From Pedobacter sp. (lineage in GTDB: Bacteria; Bacteroidota; Bacteroidia; Sphingobacteriales; Sphingobacteriaceae): DNA of 49,453 bases. A program made the position numbers and the translations under genes. The first letter of the stretch is position 1. Each line of letters opens with the position of its first letter. The notes under the pieces were generated by a model. The model worked only from the letters and a program-made list of their open reading frames with translations. It was not told the origin of the DNA and made no database searches. The DNA is taken from the NCBI GenBank assembly GCA_036388375.1, contig DASVRX010000188.1:1-49453 (forward strand), in the 5' to 3' direction. Positions 34,418 to 42,008 of this stretch are shown here, piece after piece.

Positions 34418-34577
34418 TTATCCGCTCGTGTAGTGTTTGAGAACGACAAACAAAGCAGGAATCGCAAATACTCCTAATAATGTTCCTATCAACATTCCTC
34501 CTACCGCACCAGTTCCAATTAAACGGTTACCAACTGAACCGGCACCCGATGCAAACATCAGCGGCACCAATCCGAGG
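34418..34577 (-). pseudogene. C-terminal fragment of an RND efflux permease (AcrB family)
   Basis: LGLVPLMFASGAGSVGNRLIGTGAVGGMLIGTLLGVFAIPALFVV matches the last two TM helices of AcrB-type proteins. Confidence 0.75.
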
Positions 34578-35130
34578 TATAAGGAAGGAAATAAGAGCGC
34601 TTTCTCTCGCCGCAAAATGTCCGGCATCCAGCCCCGAAAATTCTGTGTCGGTCCAGCGGGTATTATGGTGGGCTGCATCTTCACGTATCCTTTTGTGGCT
34701 ACTATCGGGGTACAGTAGGCTAATTCCTTTACCACGAAGGGCAAGTTTATGCTTGATCCGAAGGTAGATCTGCAGCCCTGCCAAGTCCCAGTCGCAGATA
34801 TAGTACAATGTGCGCGCAAACTCCGACGCAATGTCATCAACAATTTTAATATTGTTGTCCCCCACATACCAAAGCTTTATCTGAAGTACCCTCGCGACCA
34901 ATGGCTGTTTTAAAAGGGATTTGTTTTCGCAGAATACGACTGCCACAGGATTGGGATGGTCGCCCACCAATCGCCACTGATGCTCCTTAGCTTCATGGCT
35001 AAAGCTACTGATGCCAAGAATTTAAAAGACTGCATCGCGCACGCTGCTTTTGCGTTTAAGGTATTTGGAGCTTCCGAAGATTTTACTTGGTGCGATTTCA
35101 GCTTTTACGGTCTGCAAAGTATTTAATATT
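34578..35130 (-). pseudogene. Degenerate second jetD/mksG copy, inverted
   Basis: SKYLKRKSSVRDAVF*ILG...DHPNPVAVVFCENKSLLKQP...KLWYVGDNN...YYICDWDLAGLQIY aligns with 32232-33197; in-frame TAA near 35022; both ends lost. Confidence 0.8.
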
Positions 35131-35215: not shown

Positions 35216-35245
35216 ATGTTACAATTTTGTATATATTTGTAACAT
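35216..35245 (+). promoter_or_regulatory. Inverted-repeat operator overlapping a Bacteroidetes -7 promoter box
   Basis: ATGTTACAA-N12-TTGTAACAT (35216-35224 / 35237-35245) overlaps TATATTTG (35232-35239) and the ATG at 35244. Confidence 0.6.
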
Positions 35246-35852
35246 GTCGTCCACTCACAACCTTATTATTGAAAAAATTAAAAAGCGTAGCGGCGGGAGT
35301 ATATTTTTCCCCAATGATTTTCGTGGACTCGGCTCGGATGACGCTATCAAAATGAGTCTTAGTAGGCATGCAGAGAATGGGAGGCTTGAAAGGATAGCAC
35401 ACGGTATATATTATAAACCACATAAATATTCGAAGGATCGGTCGCCTTCTCTGGAATCCATAGCTGTGGCCATTGCAAAAAAAGAGCGGATCCTGATAAA
35501 ACCATCGGGTCTAAATGCCTTGTACAAGTTGAGCATGGTATCCACTGCGCCAGTCGATTTGGTTTACATAACAGATGGCGAACCCCGCAATATCCTTGTG
35601 GACGGAAAAAGATTAATATTTAAATCGACCACACCAAAAAAACTTAATCTTTCCACGGAAACGAGTGGATTGCTAATACAAGCTCTTGAAGAAATTGGAA
35701 GAAATGCTGTTGATGATTCCGTAGTTACAAAGGTTAAGGTCCATTTAAAAAAAATAGATCAGCACACCCTGGATGCCGACCTGAAATTGGCTCCTGCCTG
35801 GATCTATAATCTAATTTACAAGTTAAACGAACAAATAAAATTATCACTATGA
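35244..35852 (+). CDS. DUF6088 family protein (AbiEi-like winged-helix antitoxin/regulator)
   Basis: IFFPNDF..LGS.DAI...LSR....G.LERIAHGIYYKP, VYITDG.PR.I, LLIQAL, APAWI. Confidence 0.8.
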   Translation: MSSTHNLIIEKIKKRSGGSIFFPNDFRGLGSDDAIKMSLSRHAENGRLERIAHGIYYKPHKYSKDRSPSLESIAVAIAKKERILIKPSGLNALYKLSMVSTAPVDLVYITDGEPRNILVDGKRLIFKSTTPKKLNLSTETSGLLIQALEEIGRNAVDDSVVTKVKVHLKKIDQHTLDADLKLAPAWIYNLIYKLNEQIKLSL

Positions 35853-36628
35853 ATACGCTACTAGATACTAATGACCAGGTTTGGCATGAGCTGTGCTATT
35901 ATGCAACACAGCTTCCAAATGAACATGACGAGTTGCTGCCTGGATTAAAGTGGGGGGATTGTAGCCAGCTCTATACCCCTGCTTTCTGGAAAATGCAATA
36001 TATTTCCCATAAACAGGTTGACGATTCAAATACAATTTATAAACTCGGCACAACAATCCTTGAAGAAATTGTAGTATGCCTTCTGGGTGGGTTTGGAATG
36101 CCTTCCGAATTGGGCCTTGCAGCTTTTGAAAGGTTGAAGCAATATAATTTAATCAGGCCTAAAGTGGCATTTGAAGATTTATACCAAGCGCTTTATGAAC
36201 CCTTTACTTTTGAAGGCGGGCGCAGCGTCAGGTACCGGTTTTATAACCAAAAAGCGAGATATTTATCTAAATTATTAAACAGGGACGATTTAGAACAGAT
36301 ACCATTAGATAATGACATTCAGTTTAGGAATTGGCTGTTGACTGTGGATGGGATCGGGTTAAAGACTGCTTCCTGGATAACCAGAAACTGGCTCAATAGC
36401 GATAATGTTGCAATTTTAGATATTCATATTTTGCGCGCTGGTGTCTTAGCAGGGTTTTACCAGAACAATATTGAAAACCTGGATAAGCATTATTTATCCC
36501 TCGAAAAGAAATATTTGGAATTCTGCAATGCCCTGGATGTTTCTTCTTCAATAATGGATGCAATAATTTGGGACTTTATGAAAAAAAATAATAAATTAGC
36601 ACTCCATGCGTTAAAATACACTAATTAA
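35849..36628 (+). CDS. HhH-superfamily DNA glycosylase (8-oxoguanine glycosylase/OGG-like)
   Basis: EEIVVCLLGG, YRFYNQKA, HhH motif VDGIGLKTASW with catalytic Lys, ILDIHILR with catalytic Asp, DAIIW. Confidence 0.8.
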   Translation: MNTLLDTNDQVWHELCYYATQLPNEHDELLPGLKWGDCSQLYTPAFWKMQYISHKQVDDSNTIYKLGTTILEEIVVCLLGGFGMPSELGLAAFERLKQYNLIRPKVAFEDLYQALYEPFTFEGGRSVRYRFYNQKARYLSKLLNRDDLEQIPLDNDIQFRNWLLTVDGIGLKTASWITRNWLNSDNVAILDIHILRAGVLAGFYQNNIENLDKHYLSLEKKYLEFCNALDVSSSIMDAIIWDFMKKNNKLALHALKYTN

Positions 36629-36637
36629 AACATCTAC

Positions 36638-36973
36638 ATGTCAGGAAGCAACCCCTCGGATGACTCTCCCTTTGTGGGAGGATCATCTAATTTAACAGAT
36701 TGCATCAACTTGACCGGTCGTGGCACAATCATGTCACCAGATCCGGCAATCCTACATTTGTTGAGCATCGGCGATCTCGTAATGATTAGTTTACGTTCAG
36801 TCACTGGTCCTTTGCAGGCACTAACCCAAGCCGGACAACTGATCGGTAATATATTTTTATCCGGTAATCTTTCTGCTACATTTATTACATGCATAAATGA
36901 TGTGAACGAATACAAGGGGAAAATAACTTCCCTAGATGGTGGTCTATGCGAAATCTACATTTCACTAAGATGA
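36638..36973 (+). CDS. Small hypothetical protein, Ser/Gly-rich N-terminal tail + possible HIRAN-like beta domain
   Basis: 9 nt after the glycosylase stop; TGA overlaps the next ATG (ATGA 36970-36973). Confidence 0.65.
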   Translation: MSGSNPSDDSPFVGGSSNLTDCINLTGRGTIMSPDPAILHLLSIGDLVMISLRSVTGPLQALTQAGQLIGNIFLSGNLSATFITCINDVNEYKGKITSLDGGLCEIYISLR

Positions 36974-38184
36974 TAGTCGTTGGAGGGACCTACGATGAGT
37001 ACTGCTTTGAACCAAGGTGGGAAATGAAATTTGGTTCCGGACTTAGGGCATGCTGGGTTCTGGGACGCCTAAATCCTGATAGGGAAATTACATTCTATTC
37101 TTTCGGCGATAAAACAACAACCGAATTCCTGGCAATTGTTGCCGAAGAAATTAACTTAAAGCCCATGATTACGTCTATTCCGAAGACCGTTCAGTTTCGG
37201 TATGATTATCCCTTGGCAGATCCGGTAGTAATTCCACGCCCAGACACCTTGAACCCCCACAGTAACAGTATTGAAGTGATGGGAGAAAATATACTGTACT
37301 ATGGCATGATTGAGGGCAATGCTGTCGTTTCAGGCAATAAAGTTATCTACGACCCTCAGTCACCCTCAAATCCACTACCCTTCTCCGCTACGGGTTCAAG
37401 AGCGAAGCAATTGGCAGTGGTTGTCAATATTGTGGAAGCAAAAAAAATTGTAGGCATTAAAGAAGCGGATCTTAAAGCTATTGAAGATTTCTTTTTTATA
37501 GAAGAGAAAGCCGAAGTCCTTGTCCTTAAAATGGGCGCTAAAGGAGCATTAGTGAAAACGAATACTGGAAAGGAAGAAATTATACCTGTGTATGAAACTA
37601 GCTCAGTTTGGCCTATTGGATCCGGAGATGTCTTCGCAGCCTCATTCGCACATTATTGGATAGAATCAGAAGATCCAATACATGCAGCAAGATTGGCCTC
37701 TTGGAACACAGCAGTTTACTGCAACACCCGCAACTTTAACTTTACACCTTTCGAAAGTAACCCGGACATAAAACCGTTTAAGATATTTGACTATCCAATA
37801 GGCCAAATTTACCTTGCTGGACCTTTTTTTACATTCTCGGAACGTTGGCTTGTAGACCAGATTTTTAAATGTCTGCAGGCTATGAATCTCAGAGTTTTTT
37901 CCCCATGGCACCATGTTGGCCTTGGTGATGCCTCCACAGTTGTACCGCTGGATATAAAAGGGCTTAATGAATCCAAATTAGTGTTTGCGATTTTGGATGG
38001 CTTAGATTCGGGAACTTTATTTGAAATTGGTTTTGCTATTGCAAAGGGCAGTACTGTAATTGGCTATGTTGAGAACGAAAGTTCGGAAAGCATAAAAATG
38101 CTGGAAGGCACCGATTGTATCATCGAAAGAGATCTGACAACTGCAATATATAAGTCCTTATGGGCATTAGCAAAAAATGAGTAA
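36970..38184 (+). CDS. PfkB/ribokinase-family kinase fused to nucleoside 2-deoxyribosyltransferase-like domain
   Basis: PfkB: GSGLRA, LKMGAKGA, IGSGDVFAA; NDT: IYLAGPFF, FSP, DG.DSGTLFEIGFA. ATG 36970 preferred to 36946. Confidence 0.85.
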   Translation: MIVVGGTYDEYCFEPRWEMKFGSGLRACWVLGRLNPDREITFYSFGDKTTTEFLAIVAEEINLKPMITSIPKTVQFRYDYPLADPVVIPRPDTLNPHSNSIEVMGENILYYGMIEGNAVVSGNKVIYDPQSPSNPLPFSATGSRAKQLAVVVNIVEAKKIVGIKEADLKAIEDFFFIEEKAEVLVLKMGAKGALVKTNTGKEEIIPVYETSSVWPIGSGDVFAASFAHYWIESEDPIHAARLASWNTAVYCNTRNFNFTPFESNPDIKPFKIFDYPIGQIYLAGPFFTFSERWLVDQIFKCLQAMNLRVFSPWHHVGLGDASTVVPLDIKGLNESKLVFAILDGLDSGTLFEIGFAIAKGSTVIGYVENESSESIKMLEGTDCIIERDLTTAIYKSLWALAKNE

Positions 38185-38767
38185 GGGTATACTATTATCC
38201 GGTGGTATGGATTCAATATCACTTGCTTACTGGGTAAGACCGGAAATAGCTATAACTATTGATTACGGGCAGGCAGCGGCAGAAACCGAAATCAGGATGA
38301 GTTCCATCATCGCTGGAAATTTAGGCATCGAGCATCATACAATTAAGGTAGACTGCAGCAGCTTGGGGAGCGGAGACTTAATCAACAGCACAGCTATAAA
38401 TGAATCACCATCATCCGAGTGGTGGCCTTACCGAAACCAGTTGTTAATAACATTGGCCTGTATGAAAGGTATTAGTTTAGGACTAAAAGAACTGATTTTG
38501 GGCTCTGTTAAATCTGACGGGTTTCATAAAGATGGGACGTATGAATTTTACAATCGCATGAACTCCCTAATGGAGTATCAGGAGGAGGAAATTAAAATAT
38601 TAAGTCCCTGCATTGAAATGTCCACAGTTGAGCTAATAAAGGTTTCAGGAATCCCAAAATCATTACTGCATTGGGCTCATTCCTGCCATACTTCCAATAT
38701 ACCCTGCGGTAAATGCCGGGGATGCAACAAATACGGAAAAACCCTTAATGAATTGTACGCAGAGTAA
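38177..38767 (+). CDS. QueC-like (7-cyano-7-deazaguanine synthase family) PP-loop ATPase
   Basis: LLSGGMDS, IDYGQ, PYRNQ, zinc site CHTSNIPCGKCRGC. Confidence 0.85.
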   Translation: MSKGILLSGGMDSISLAYWVRPEIAITIDYGQAAAETEIRMSSIIAGNLGIEHHTIKVDCSSLGSGDLINSTAINESPSSEWWPYRNQLLITLACMKGISLGLKELILGSVKSDGFHKDGTYEFYNRMNSLMEYQEEEIKILSPCIEMSTVELIKVSGIPKSLLHWAHSCHTSNIPCGKCRGCNKYGKTLNELYAE

Positions 38768-39420
38768 TGAATAATCCCCAAATAAAATCGTTCGAAGATA
38801 TTGTCCCTGCTTTTAATTACTCAATAAAAGAAGTAATAAAACTCTCCAGAGATATAAAACCTCTCGATAGACGTTTTGATGCGGTTATAAGCGTGCGAAA
38901 GTCCACACGATTATTCAGGCAATTAAAATTAGCACAGATTGGAGATATTTTATCGTATGTGGCAAAAGTACAGGATACTTACCAACAGGACAATGGTTAT
39001 ATTCTCACACACCGGGCGACAGCATCTGCTGGCGCACGTCATCCTGTTGACATAATAATCAACACTCCTGTACTATCAAAAGGCGACTTTTACTACTATA
39101 ATCCGTTTGAGCACTCTTTAAATAATTTAAAAGAATTTGAAGGGAGCAACCTTACTAGGCATGTAAACAACATCGTTGACACCACAAATGCTACGATTAT
39201 TTGGTTTGTAGCACATAAATACCGTACACAAGCCAAATACTCAAATGCTGACTCGCTTGTATGGCGGGATGCCGGGGCATTAATTAATGGGATTCAAATG
39301 GTTTGTGGTGCGATGGGCTTGAATAGCTGTCCCATCGGAAGCTTGGGTGAGCCATTTATATCTGATTATTTTAACAATCAGGAAGGTATAGTTGGCGCAG
39401 GTGGACTGCTGATTGGCTGA
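38767..39420 (+). CDS. Nitroreductase / SagB-like FMN-dependent oxidoreductase
   Basis: RKS, SAGARHP, KY....SLVWRDAG, GLNSCPIG; TAATG coupling with the QueC-like gene. Confidence 0.78.
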   Translation: MNNPQIKSFEDIVPAFNYSIKEVIKLSRDIKPLDRRFDAVISVRKSTRLFRQLKLAQIGDILSYVAKVQDTYQQDNGYILTHRATASAGARHPVDIIINTPVLSKGDFYYYNPFEHSLNNLKEFEGSNLTRHVNNIVDTTNATIIWFVAHKYRTQAKYSNADSLVWRDAGALINGIQMVCGAMGLNSCPIGSLGEPFISDYFNNQEGIVGAGGLLIG

Positions 39421-41229: not shown

Positions 41230-41487
41230 TTAATCGAGAGTTTGTTCTATGTATTCCAAACCTTTTTGCGTTATCGAATATTTCTTCTGATCATCTTGAG
41301 AAATCAGTTTTTCGTCTTTCATTTCCTGTAAGGAATTTAGCAACTCATGTGCCCAAAGTGGCTCATCATTTTCTGTATTAAAAAGACTCGTATTCAATAA
41401 TAGTTCTAGTCTTATTACTTCGATCTTTTTGGAGTTTGCTCTATTTATTGCCTCCAATACCTTCAATATTCTAAGTTTACTTTTCAT
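41230..41487 (-). CDS. Candidate immunity protein of the orphan toxin tip (winged-helix-like)
   Basis: 85 aa, 11 nt after the orphan tip; ends LQEMKDEKLI...YSITQKGLEYI. Confidence 0.55.
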   Translation of the reverse strand: MKSKLRILKVLEAINRANSKKIEVIRLELLLNTSLFNTENDEPLWAHELLNSLQEMKDEKLISQDDQKKYSITQKGLEYIEQTLD

Positions 41488-41498
41488 GTTTATTATTT

Positions 41499-42008
41499 TT
41501 ATCTTCCTAAAATCTCTCTGTCGCTTTGAGATAAATAATCAATTTCTTTTATGTCGGGATGATATAATGATCTTCCGCCGTTATCGAATTCGTGTAGTTT
41601 GTAATCTTCTAATGTCGCTGAATGTGCATTGTTATATACTTCCTCAGGAATTAAGTCATTCTTCGTGTTCTCAAATCCTATATTTTTATATCTTTCGTAT
41701 TCTCTCGTCTCGTGTGTAAAGAATTTTCTATCCCAGTCTGTGATTTCTACGTGGCCTTTCTGAATTTTTTCTAATCTTTCGATCATTTTTGTGTTCGCAG
41801 TAATTTCTTCAAATCGGCTCAAATGTTTGCGAATGATTTCAATACCTTTTTTAGTTATTTTAGCATCTTTCCATACTAAGTTCAAGATTTTTCCTCCGCA
41901 GTTATTAATATCAAAGCTACGTTTACAATATTTTCCGATAATTATTTTGCTAGCTCGTTTTGTTTTCGCCAAATCATCCAAATACTTCTTCGCCTCTTTA
42001 TTACTCAT
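41499..42008 (-). CDS. Orphan polymorphic toxin C-terminal cassette
   Basis: Begins inside the junction repeat shared with the full toxin; HLSRF...N..MIERL...D..FFTHETRE...NNAHSATLEDY resembles tips I recall from Rhs/PAAR/pyocin-like toxins. Confidence 0.72.
   Translation of the reverse strand: MSNKEAKKYLDDLAKTKRASKIIIGKYCKRSFDINNCGGKILNLVWKDAKITKKGIEIIRKHLSRFEEITANTKMIERLEKIQKGHVEITDWDRKFFTHETREYERYKNIGFENTKNDLIPEEVYNNAHSATLEDYKLHEFDNGGRSLYHPDIKEIDYLSQSDREILGR

What the first reader, a model, noticed from the sequence alone, without database searches (positions are those of the whole stretch)
35849..39420. Glycosylase / small protein / PfkB-NDT / QueC / nitroreductase operon: candidate new base-modification defence system
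Seen: tightly coupled genes inside a defence island, with no folE, queD, queE, queF or tgt in the window. Known: QueC paralogs act in QatABCD and type IV CBASS, the latter also with an OGG-like glycosylase. This locus has no cyclase, TatD or KAP ATPase, so it matches neither. Inference: a pathway that excises, salvages or re-routes modified guanines (for example phage 7-deazaguanines): the glycosylase and NDT release bases, PfkB phosphorylates, QueC activates a carboxyl group and the flavoenzyme does redox chemistry.
Basis: partly seen in the sequence, partly recalled or inferred. Interest (0 to 1): 0.82.

Follow-up and report, generated by a model that had tools for sequence, protein, structure and literature searches.

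The report
Guanine-tagged HIRAN protein defence operon
A conserved five-gene cluster, often found beside anti-phage genes, pairs a QueC-like enzyme with a small protein of predicted HIRAN fold and a conserved Ser-Gly start, which the enzyme is predicted to bind and likely tags with a guanine-like base, making it a likely third kind of base-to-protein tagging defence system.

Summary
The operon is real and conserved from Bacteroidota to E. coli and haloarchaea. The 111-aa protein has a predicted HIRAN fold and a flexible tail starting M-S-G. M[S/G/T/C]G is present in 92 of 96 QueC-bearing loci and echoes the acceptor motif that Cap9 deazaguanylates in type IV CBASS. A complex model docks it on the QueC (0.82, best control 0.00). 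Where QueC is replaced by an adenylosuccinate-synthetase-like gene, the docking serine is lost in 4 of 4 loci and the tail motif in 3 of 4 (one clade). The 'nitroreductase' is closest to azoline oxidases. With it, residue 2 is Ser in 63 of 64 loci and never Gly; without it, Gly appears in 8 of 24. A sister variant uses Cap10-like TGT and a TIR protein starting MGGG, and its NDT domain has lost its catalytic motifs. Best reading: a third QueC protein-tagging defence system, in which NDT and PfkB likely build a nucleotide on the tag. The QueC/PfkB-NDT pair was noted before (Libby 2026, 'Cluster 4') as possible purine salvage. No activity or phage protection has been shown.

The parts
35244..35852 (+). 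AbiEi-like (DUF6088) gene, probable regulator; overlaps the operon start but is lineage-specific
   Evidence: PF19570 E 7e-43, PADLOC AbiEi E 2e-50; directly upstream in close Bacteroidota loci only
35849..36628 (+). OGG2-type HhH glycosylase/AP lyase (Cap11-like accessory; inferred eraser or regulator)
   Evidence: PF22175; best PDB hits are 8-oxoG glycosylases; K172, D191, H193 in 55 of 55; present in 74 of 82 scorable QueC loci
36638..36973 (+). Predicted HIRAN-fold protein with a disordered Gly/Ser tail starting M-S-G; inferred substrate of the QueC
   Evidence: model pLDDT 82 with low confidence over about residues 1-20; 3k2y Z 11.0, HLTF HIRAN Z 8.0, Rad5 Z 7.4; motif counts; complex model 0.82 vs best control 0.00
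36638..36649 (+). N-terminal M-S-G-S: inferred acceptor amine (Ser2 after Met removal)
   Evidence: M[SGTC]G in 92 of 96 QueC loci; Ser2 in 63 of 64 oxidase-bearing loci
36970..38184 (+). PfkB kinase fused to a nucleoside 2'-deoxyribosyltransferase domain (likely start 36970 by ATGA overlap; longest ORF starts 36946)
   Evidence: PF00294 and PF05014; PfkB D228 in 75 of 76; NDT Y289 and E360 in 75 of 76, D354 in 76 of 76; PDB hits to NDTs and ribokinases
38177..38767 (+). QueC paralog, 196 aa, matching Libby 'Cluster 4'; inferred base-to-protein ligase
   Evidence: PP-loop S8 and S13 59 of 59, D12 58 of 59; four Zn cysteines and D119 59 of 59; H117 aromatic 59 of 59; below the canonical QueC cut-off, 76.7 vs 150.3 bits; profile hits Cap9 9NTO first
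38767..39420 (+). SagB/ThcOx-like FMN oxidase (azoline-oxidase branch of the nitroreductase fold)
   Evidence: TIGR03605 72.1 bits vs cut-off 78.4; best PDB hits CyaGox and BmdC, weak McbC; Y158 55 of 55, K157 36 of 55

Best explanation
This conserved operon is likely an anti-phage system in which the QueC paralog is predicted to dock on the small, predicted HIRAN-fold protein and likely uses ATP to join a guanine-like carboxylate (probably 7-carboxy-7-deazaguanine, CDG) to the protein's freed N-terminal serine. Shown here: gene linkage, motif conservation, intact catalytic residues, co-variation across loci and a controlled complex model. Inferred by analogy to Cap9: Met removal, adenylation of CDG supplied by host FolE/QueD/QueE, and amide formation (about 0.7). 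Inferred, weaker: the NDT domain stands in for the Cap10 transglycosylase and adds deoxyribose to the free N9 of the protein-bound base, and PfkB phosphorylates it, giving a protein-borne dGMP analogue that would jam or mark phage DNA synthesis (about 0.35). The oxidase would mature the Ser2 linkage (oxazoline to oxazole, about 0.3), and the glycosylase would remove the tag from host DNA, as proposed for Cap11.
For: Motif: M[SG]G in 74 of 79 distinct small proteins, against 4/85, 1/91, 0/64 and 5/61 for the other four genes and 19 of 1737 genome ORFs; 131 of the best 150 representatives start so. The CBASS acceptor motif is M(G/S)G(G/S)GG (bioRxiv 2025.04.06.647259). The motif stays at the extreme N-terminus despite an acidic linker of about 190 aa in Halorubrum. 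Complex model: score 0.82, best of 3 controls 0.00, runs share at least 96% of contacts, partner pLDDT at least 81. That mark was reached by 116 of 157 solved and 2 of 215 mismatched pairs, counts that hold only roughly here. The interface uses the conserved S33-P34, G70 and G101-G102. S33 is kept in 85 of 96 QueC loci and 0 of 4 PurA-type loci. QueC keeps the Asp that aligns to Cap9 D117, which reads the guanine edge, and an aromatic residue at the Y115 position. QueE-like genes are present in 20 of 20 host genomes, and PTPS/QueD-like genes in the own genome. A sister variant (L176, L177, L194) has QueC, a Cap10-like TGT, OGG, a ThsB-TIR starting MGGG and a PfkB whose NDT motifs are gone. Neighbours hit PADLOC in 39 of 101 cases against 6 of 87 control ORFs.
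Against: No biochemistry or phage phenotype. The tail is not among the confident contacts in the model, and Met1 was left on. Four of 96 QueC loci lack the motif (MSS twice, MPS, one without ATG), and one PurA-type locus keeps MGGGG. The motif profile was seeded on MSG proteins, which biases. His replaces the Tyr of Cap9/QueC in 53 of 59, so the base may not be CDG; QatC, with a similar tail logic, gave no reaction with CDG in vitro (PMC13279940, PMC13639016). No effector (nuclease, NADase, pore) lies in the core, so the step that stops the phage is a guess. The PurA swap and the TGT swap are each one clade. The neighbour control came from one genome.
Confidence: 0.58

Rival explanations
1. 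Protein tagging, but in reverse order and as a sensor. The glycosylase, NDT and PfkB first release a carboxylated base or nucleoside (from modified phage DNA or the dG pool), and QueC ligates that, not host CDG, to the small protein.
For: His for Tyr at the base-stacking site. QatC does not react with CDG in vitro. All three N-glycosidic or kinase enzymes keep catalytic residues. dGTPase is a recurring neighbour, 7 of 101.
Against: The glycosylase is missing in 8 of 82 scorable loci. All 20 hosts tested have a QueE-like gene. The guanine-reading Asp is invariant. NDT decays where a TGT is present, which fits a transfer step after ligation.
Confidence: 0.2
2. One reading: a small-molecule pathway that excises and re-routes modified guanines as free bases, with the small protein only structural.
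For: The enzyme set is compatible with it, and the defence context is real. The model shows docking through the folded domain, not the tail.
Against: It does not explain a tail fixed at residues 2-3, its loss with QueC, its presence on an unrelated TIR protein beside a related QueC, or the tie between Ser2 and the oxidase.
Confidence: 0.1
3. A RiPP-like route: the tail is a precursor peptide that is capped with a base, cyclised and oxidised, then cut off as a small nucleoside-peptide toxin, with the HIRAN domain as carrier.
For: Azoline-oxidase relative, Ser/Gly-rich tail, and tail length free to vary.
Against: No conserved protease or exporter among the conserved genes. The oxidase is absent in 24 of 88 scorable loci. 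Only residues 2-3 are fixed.
Confidence: 0.07
4. Housekeeping purine salvage or preQ0 supply (the suggestion in PMC13329287 for Cluster 4).
For: PfkB and NDT are salvage-type enzymes. 13 of the 18 hosts tested that carry this QueC have no canonical QueC above cut-off.
Against: Patchy: 13 of 301 genomes of the own order, 10 of 5426 E. coli for one version. It sits on plasmids and islands among defence genes. The YPDC motif is absent, and 5 hosts have canonical QueC as well.
Confidence: 0.05

Closest known systems
Type IV CBASS (CdnD, Cap9, Cap10, Cap11; Wassarman et al., bioRxiv 10.1101/2025.04.06.647259)
   Same: Minimal QueC of about 190 aa with PP-loop, zinc site and guanine-reading Asp; partner with an M(G/S)G(G/S)G tail; optional OGG-type glycosylase.
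   Different: No CD-NTase, TGT or effector. The acceptor has a predicted HIRAN fold with Ser2 dominant. PfkB-NDT is constant, and an azoline-oxidase relative is usual.
QatABCD (PMC13279940, PMC13639016)
   Same: QueC paralog in a 1:1 complex with a tail-bearing partner; the two-gene core can defend without a known effector.
   Different: QatC is about 400 aa with extensions and two Thr at the base site; QatB is all-helical and starts MGTS; QatA and QatD are absent here.
QueC family 'Cluster 4' (Libby et al. 2026, PMC13329287)
   Same: CH(x)5CxxCxGCxK motif, PfkB-NDT neighbour (89% in their table) and nitroreductase neighbour (22.6%). Almost certainly the same family.
   Different: In the parts I read they suggest purine salvage or regulation. 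They name no small partner, tail motif, glycosylase or defence role for this cluster.
Azoline oxidases of RiPP and NRPS pathways (McbC, ThcOx/CyaGox, BmdC; PMC6395948)
   Same: FMN-binding fold and a conserved Tyr, usually preceded by Lys, aligned to the KY of CyaGox.
   Different: No YcaO, E1-like scaffold or NRPS cyclase was detected in the window operon, so any azoline would have to come from QueC or another route.
HIRAN domains (HLTF, Rad5, lp_0118)
   Same: Same barrel fold by structure search.
   Different: No Pfam HIRAN match was seen. The DNA 3'-end pocket motif (recalled, NPYD-like) is not visible, and the conserved surface is the predicted QueC interface.

Membership tests
Type IV CBASS | CD-NTase cyclase | tested here: not met
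   No CD-NTase family among 33 window ORFs in Pfam or PADLOC
Type IV CBASS | Cap9-like minimal QueC | tested here: met
   196 aa; profile hits 9NTO Cap9 at E 1.8e-14, only slightly ahead of canonical QueC at 2.2e-13
Type IV CBASS | Cap10 TGT | tested here: not met
   No TGT in the window or the 72%-complete genome; the TGT profile hit only L176, L177 and L194, which lack the HIRAN gene
Type IV CBASS | M(G/S)G(G/S)GG acceptor tail on the QueC partner | tested here: met
   On a different protein: M[SGTC]G in 92 of 96; the window copy reads MSGSNP, matching positions 1-4 only
Type IV CBASS | Covalent NDG adduct on the partner | not testable with these tools
   Needs LC-MS
QatABCD | QatA KAP NTPase and QatD TatD nuclease | tested here: not met
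QatABCD | Extended QatC of about 400 aa with Thr-x-Thr site; helical QatB with MGTS | tested here: not met
   196 aa with H-x-D; partner is a beta barrel starting MSG
Canonical QueC (preQ0 synthase) | Equivalog score and YPDC motif | tested here: not met
   TIGR00364 76.7 vs 150.3 bits; HKDG in place of YPDC
Canonical QueC (preQ0 synthase) | Complements a queC deletion | not testable with these tools
   Bench test
QueC Cluster 4 (Libby 2026) | SGGxDS, YGQ..E and CH(x)5CxxCxGCxK motifs; PfkB-NDT neighbour | tested here: met
   the spacing reads YGQ(x)5E here, their text says (x)6
QueC Cluster 4 (Libby 2026) | Membership in their similarity-network cluster | not testable with these tools
   Their sequence list (Supplemental Data 1) is not in the one file held
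HIRAN domain | Fold | tested here: met
   3k2y Z 11.0, rmsd 2.3, 87 aligned; HLTF Z 8.0, rmsd 2.5, 85 aligned; next unrelated row Z 5.6; Foldseek agrees
HIRAN domain | Sequence match to PF08797 | tested here: inconclusive
   No Pfam hit for P0002; PF08797 is not among the 25 of 28 families shown for 59 members; Atlas lead to a HIRAN cluster at 0.86 only
HIRAN domain | Binds DNA 3' ends | not testable with these tools
   Bench test
SagB/ThcOx azoline oxidase | Family score and Lys-Tyr catalytic pair | tested here: inconclusive
   72.1 vs 78.4 bits; Y158 55 of 55, K157 36 of 55; aligned to the KY of CyaGox; equivalence to McbC K201/Y202 inferred, not aligned residue by residue
SagB/ThcOx azoline oxidase | Partner cyclodehydratase (YcaO or NRPS Cy) | tested here: not met
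   None among the window ORFs; not searched for by profile in the other loci
Anti-phage defence system | Enrichment beside defence genes | tested here: met
   39 of 101 neighbours vs 6 of 87 controls
Anti-phage defence system | Protection against phage | not testable with these tools
   Bench test

The most novel reading that the evidence does not exclude
A YcaO-free route to an azole and a protein-borne nucleotide. QueC spends its first ATP joining CDG to Ser2 of the HIRAN protein and its second (the step that dehydrates amide to nitrile in canonical QueC) closing Ser2 into an oxazoline. The SagB-like enzyme oxidises this to a deazaguanyl-oxazole cap. NDT adds deoxyribose and PfkB a phosphate, giving a dGMP analogue with a protein attached that is fed into phage DNA. 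The same tail is a portable tag also used on TIR proteins, and a PurA-like ligase can replace QueC.
Probability: 0.22. Interest if true: 0.93.

Novelty: new variant of a known kind. Interest (0 to 1): 0.82.

Why it matters
Only one base-to-protein conjugation (type IV CBASS) has been shown, and its downstream target is unknown; QatC's reaction is unsolved. This family offers a third, minimal and widespread case: 1,359 clusters at 50% identity for the small protein, with a ready copy in E. coli. Its partner enzymes point to what happens to the tag after ligation. If NDT and PfkB build a nucleotide on the tag, that makes the open question of what Cap10 transfers NDG to directly testable. If the oxidase acts on Ser2, it is new azole chemistry without YcaO. 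It would also reassign a whole QueC subfamily from salvage to immunity.

Tried and rejected
PADLOC, Pfam and NCBIfam gave no named system for the five genes. Nine literature searches found no description of the operon beyond Libby's Cluster 4; most subscription journals and bioRxiv supplements are not covered. Term searches in the TIR-systems preprint and PMC13376578 found no PfkB mention. The scan's earlier findings returned nothing. A phylogenetically independent-pairs test of Gly2 against oxidase loss gave 6 pairs, never in the opposite direction but not significant (median p 0.5); I do not rest on it. PMC5108345 gave no residue numbers to tie Y158 to ThcOx. The viral-contig scan returned only 2 full-length loci of 80 kept; the other 78 were NDT-region matches and were left out. 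No match for this QueC in 50,697 phage records at E 1e-15. A DNA 3'-end-binding role for the HIRAN protein was considered and not adopted, because the conserved surface maps to the QueC interface. Proteobacterial genomes could not be sampled by taxon, so their share rests on plasmid, E. coli and metagenome records.
Full report
1. Observation. The five genes are present and coupled as described. The window also holds Lamassu, AbiEi, Mrr and a Wadjet-like cluster. No Pfam, PADLOC or NCBIfam model names the operon.

2. Distribution and order. PfkB-NDT homologs were found in 6 of 401 genomes of the phylum, 13 of 301 of the own order, 3 of 283 and 1 of 277 of two other orders, 3 of 301 of another phylum and 37 of 72,556 plasmids including haloarchaeal ones. 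One version occurs in 10 of 5426 E. coli genomes. The metagenome scan confirmed 517 stretches and kept 80. After removing duplicates, 106 of 116 units remained; I left out 78 NDT-only viral loci and five re-fetched loci. The small gene sits directly upstream of PfkB-NDT in 106 of 109 cases with room to see it; the three misses are the TGT variant. Of 96 QueC units, the oxidase is present in 64, absent in 24 and cut off in 8. The glycosylase is upstream in 59, elsewhere in 15, absent in 8 and undetermined in 14. The core is therefore small protein, PfkB-NDT and QueC. Flanking ORFs hit PADLOC at E 1e-8 in 39 of 101 cases. I submitted 101 of the 147 extracted, dropping mostly second-downstream genes and repeated AbiEi copies. 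The control, ORFs from 20 evenly spaced stretches of one relative, hit in 6 of 87 (Fisher 1.6e-7; kin are not independent).

3. The small protein. Its model has a disordered start and a confident barrel. The barrel matches lp_0118 (Z 11.0, rmsd 2.3, 87 aligned; that this entry is a HIRAN domain is recalled), HLTF HIRAN (Z 8.0) and Rad5 (Z 7.4), above the next row at 5.6. The family has 1,359 clusters at 50% identity. Its N-terminus is M[SG]G in 74 of 79 distinct loci, against 4 of 85, 1 of 91, 0 of 64 and 5 of 61 for the other genes, and in 131 of the best 150 representatives; most others start MCG, MTG or MSS (the profile was seeded on MSG proteins). Where two Met codons were possible I preferred MSG; the upstream purine runs in L044 and L059 support that choice. 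Type IV CBASS cyclases start M(G/S)G(G/S)GG, and Cap9 joins CDG to that amine (bioRxiv 10.1101/2025.04.06.647259, parts 1-3 of 5 read). QatB starts MGTS and inserts into QatC (PMC13279940 parts 1-2 of 6; PMC13639016 passages).

4. Link to QueC. The complex model scored 0.82 against a best control of 0.00. Runs agreed in at least 96% of contacts and partner pLDDT was at least 81; the mark was reached by 116 of 157 solved and 2 of 215 mismatched pairs, roughly applicable because I used my own alignments and ligands. It supports binding and does not show it. The solved QueC partners (CdnD, QatB) have other folds, so a pass from memory of this pair is unlikely. Contacts fall on residues 30-36, 56-58, 68-76 and 100-104, which include the family's conserved S33-P34, G70 and G101-G102. 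The tail is not among the confident contacts. In four loci an adenylosuccinate-synthetase-like gene replaces QueC. There S33 is lost in 4 of 4 (kept in 85 of 96 QueC loci), G102 becomes L, V, M or S, and the tail starts MK in 3 of 4. These four form one clade, so this is one event. QueC keeps the PP-loop, zinc cysteines, R86-N87 and D119, with His, Tyr or Phe at 117, aligned to Cap9 Y115 and D117. All 20 hosts tested have a QueE-like gene, though below the Bacillus-specific cut-off; 5 have canonical QueC.

5. What the other enzymes may do. NDT keeps Y289, D354 and E360 (75, 76 and 75 of 76) and PfkB keeps its GSGD motif; that these are the catalytic residues is recalled from the families. In three rhizobial plasmid loci the NDT motifs are gone, a Cap10-like TGT is present (E 1.9e-8 to 9NTN), and the gene after QueC is a ThsB-type TIR starting MGGG. 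This suggests that NDT and TGT are alternative ways to use the free N9 of the tag. It rests on one small clade, and NDT is also decayed in L208 (contig cut) and in an extra copy in L093. The flavoprotein's best solved relatives are azoline oxidases, whose Lys-Tyr pair removes a proton from a Ser- or Cys-derived ring (PMC6395948 passages). With the oxidase, residue 2 is Ser in 63 and Pro (followed by Ser) in 1 of 64. Without it, residue 2 is Ser 13, Gly 8, Thr 1, Cys 1 and unreadable 1 of 24 (Fisher 9e-6, not corrected for kinship). Gly2 falls in 7 separate groups, all in oxidase-free branches, which make up 30% of tree length; for 6 independent origins that has a chance of about 7e-4 (FastTree, rough). 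Ser2 codons agree: TCN in 62 of 63 with the oxidase, AGY in 8 of 13 without, as if the site drifts only once the oxidase is gone. Against this: the independent-pairs test is not significant, Ser2 also occurs in CBASS without an oxidase, the Lys is kept in only 36 of 55, and L051 starts MPS.

6. Mechanism. Shown: linkage, motif, intact active sites, co-variation, predicted docking and defence neighbourhood. Inferred, about 0.7: QueC amidates the small protein's N-terminus with a guanine-like carboxylate, probably CDG. Inferred, about 0.35: NDT and PfkB turn the tag into a protein-borne nucleotide that interferes with phage DNA synthesis; dGTPase neighbours (7 of 101) could feed deoxyguanosine. 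Inferred, about 0.3: Ser2 is cyclised and oxidised. The glycosylase as eraser follows the proposal for Cap11. The step that stops the phage is unknown.

7. Comparison and novelty. It works like the Cap9-CdnD and QatC-QatB pairs but is a member of neither system, since cyclase, TGT, KAP NTPase and TatD are missing. The QueC fits Cluster 4 of PMC13329287 (parts 1-3 of 5 and supplement part 1 of 3 read, plus a term search). Nine searches found no account of the HIRAN partner, the tail or a defence role. Two further papers were term-searched only, and one gave nothing useful. Closed bioRxiv supplements and subscription papers could hold an earlier mention. Verdict: new variant of a known kind, interest 0.82.

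Noticed in passing
L176:6007-10369, L177:5953-10364, L194:5004-9404 (Rhizobium/Agrobacterium plasmids): A cyclase-free sister of type IV CBASS: PfkB with decayed NDT, a TIR fused to a Cap10-like TGT, OGG, QueC and a ThsB-type TIR starting MGGG, among TRAFs-binding, DUF4231 and further TIR genes. It looks like a Thoeris-type TIR under deazaguanylation control. Not found in my searches.
   Followed up: partly
L077:794-3540, L090:5609-8365, L200, L205: Variant in which an adenylosuccinate-synthetase-like gene (PF00709) replaces QueC behind HIRAN and PfkB-NDT. The tail starts MK in 3 of 4 and the docking Ser is lost in 4 of 4. In L090 a Ham1 and SIR2 pair lies on the opposite strand.
   Followed up: partly
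L173:7407-8917, L174, L178, L235 and others (11 of 96 loci): A short D12-class adenine methyltransferase-like gene (about 220 aa) is coupled to the glycosylase, mostly convergent to the core operon. Role unexplained.
   Followed up: no
L022, L056, L071, L084, L173, L185, L190: An anti-phage dGTPase recurs next to the operon, in three cases overlapping or abutting queC. Its product, deoxyguanosine, is a plausible deoxyribose donor for NDT.
   Followed up: partly
L175:3919-5007, L189, L191; P0020, P0049, P0069, P0097: Long forms carry two tandem HIRAN-like domains. The haloarchaeal ones have a long acidic linker yet keep MGG or MCG at the start; none of the three loci has the oxidase.
   Followed up: partly
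window:20830-26951: Lamassu/ABC-3C system with MBL and protease-CTD4 effectors (LmuA twice, LmuC, LmuB), in a stretch of about 30% GC.
   Followed up: no
window:26978-33197 and 34527-34970: Four-gene MksE/SMC (Wadjet-like) cluster that escapes PADLOC models. By eye, a partial second copy of its last gene lies on the minus strand.
   Followed up: no
window:39378-40406: Convergent Mrr-type nuclease gene overlapping the oxidase end by 43 nt; a similar gene follows the operon in L008 and L009.
   Followed up: no
window:42241-45083 and 41230-42008: EndoU-tipped 834-aa protein followed by small genes, resembling a polymorphic toxin with immunity cassettes.
   Followed up: no
G000 contigs C85, C308, C23: The host has PTPS/QueD-like and QueE-like genes, but no canonical queC was found, as in most Bacteroidota hosts tested (5 of 20 hosts have one). 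Such hosts could accumulate CDG.
   Followed up: partly
L053, L093, L188: Loci with two copies of HIRAN plus PfkB-NDT; the second copy in L093 has a decayed NDT and no adjoining QueC.
   Followed up: no
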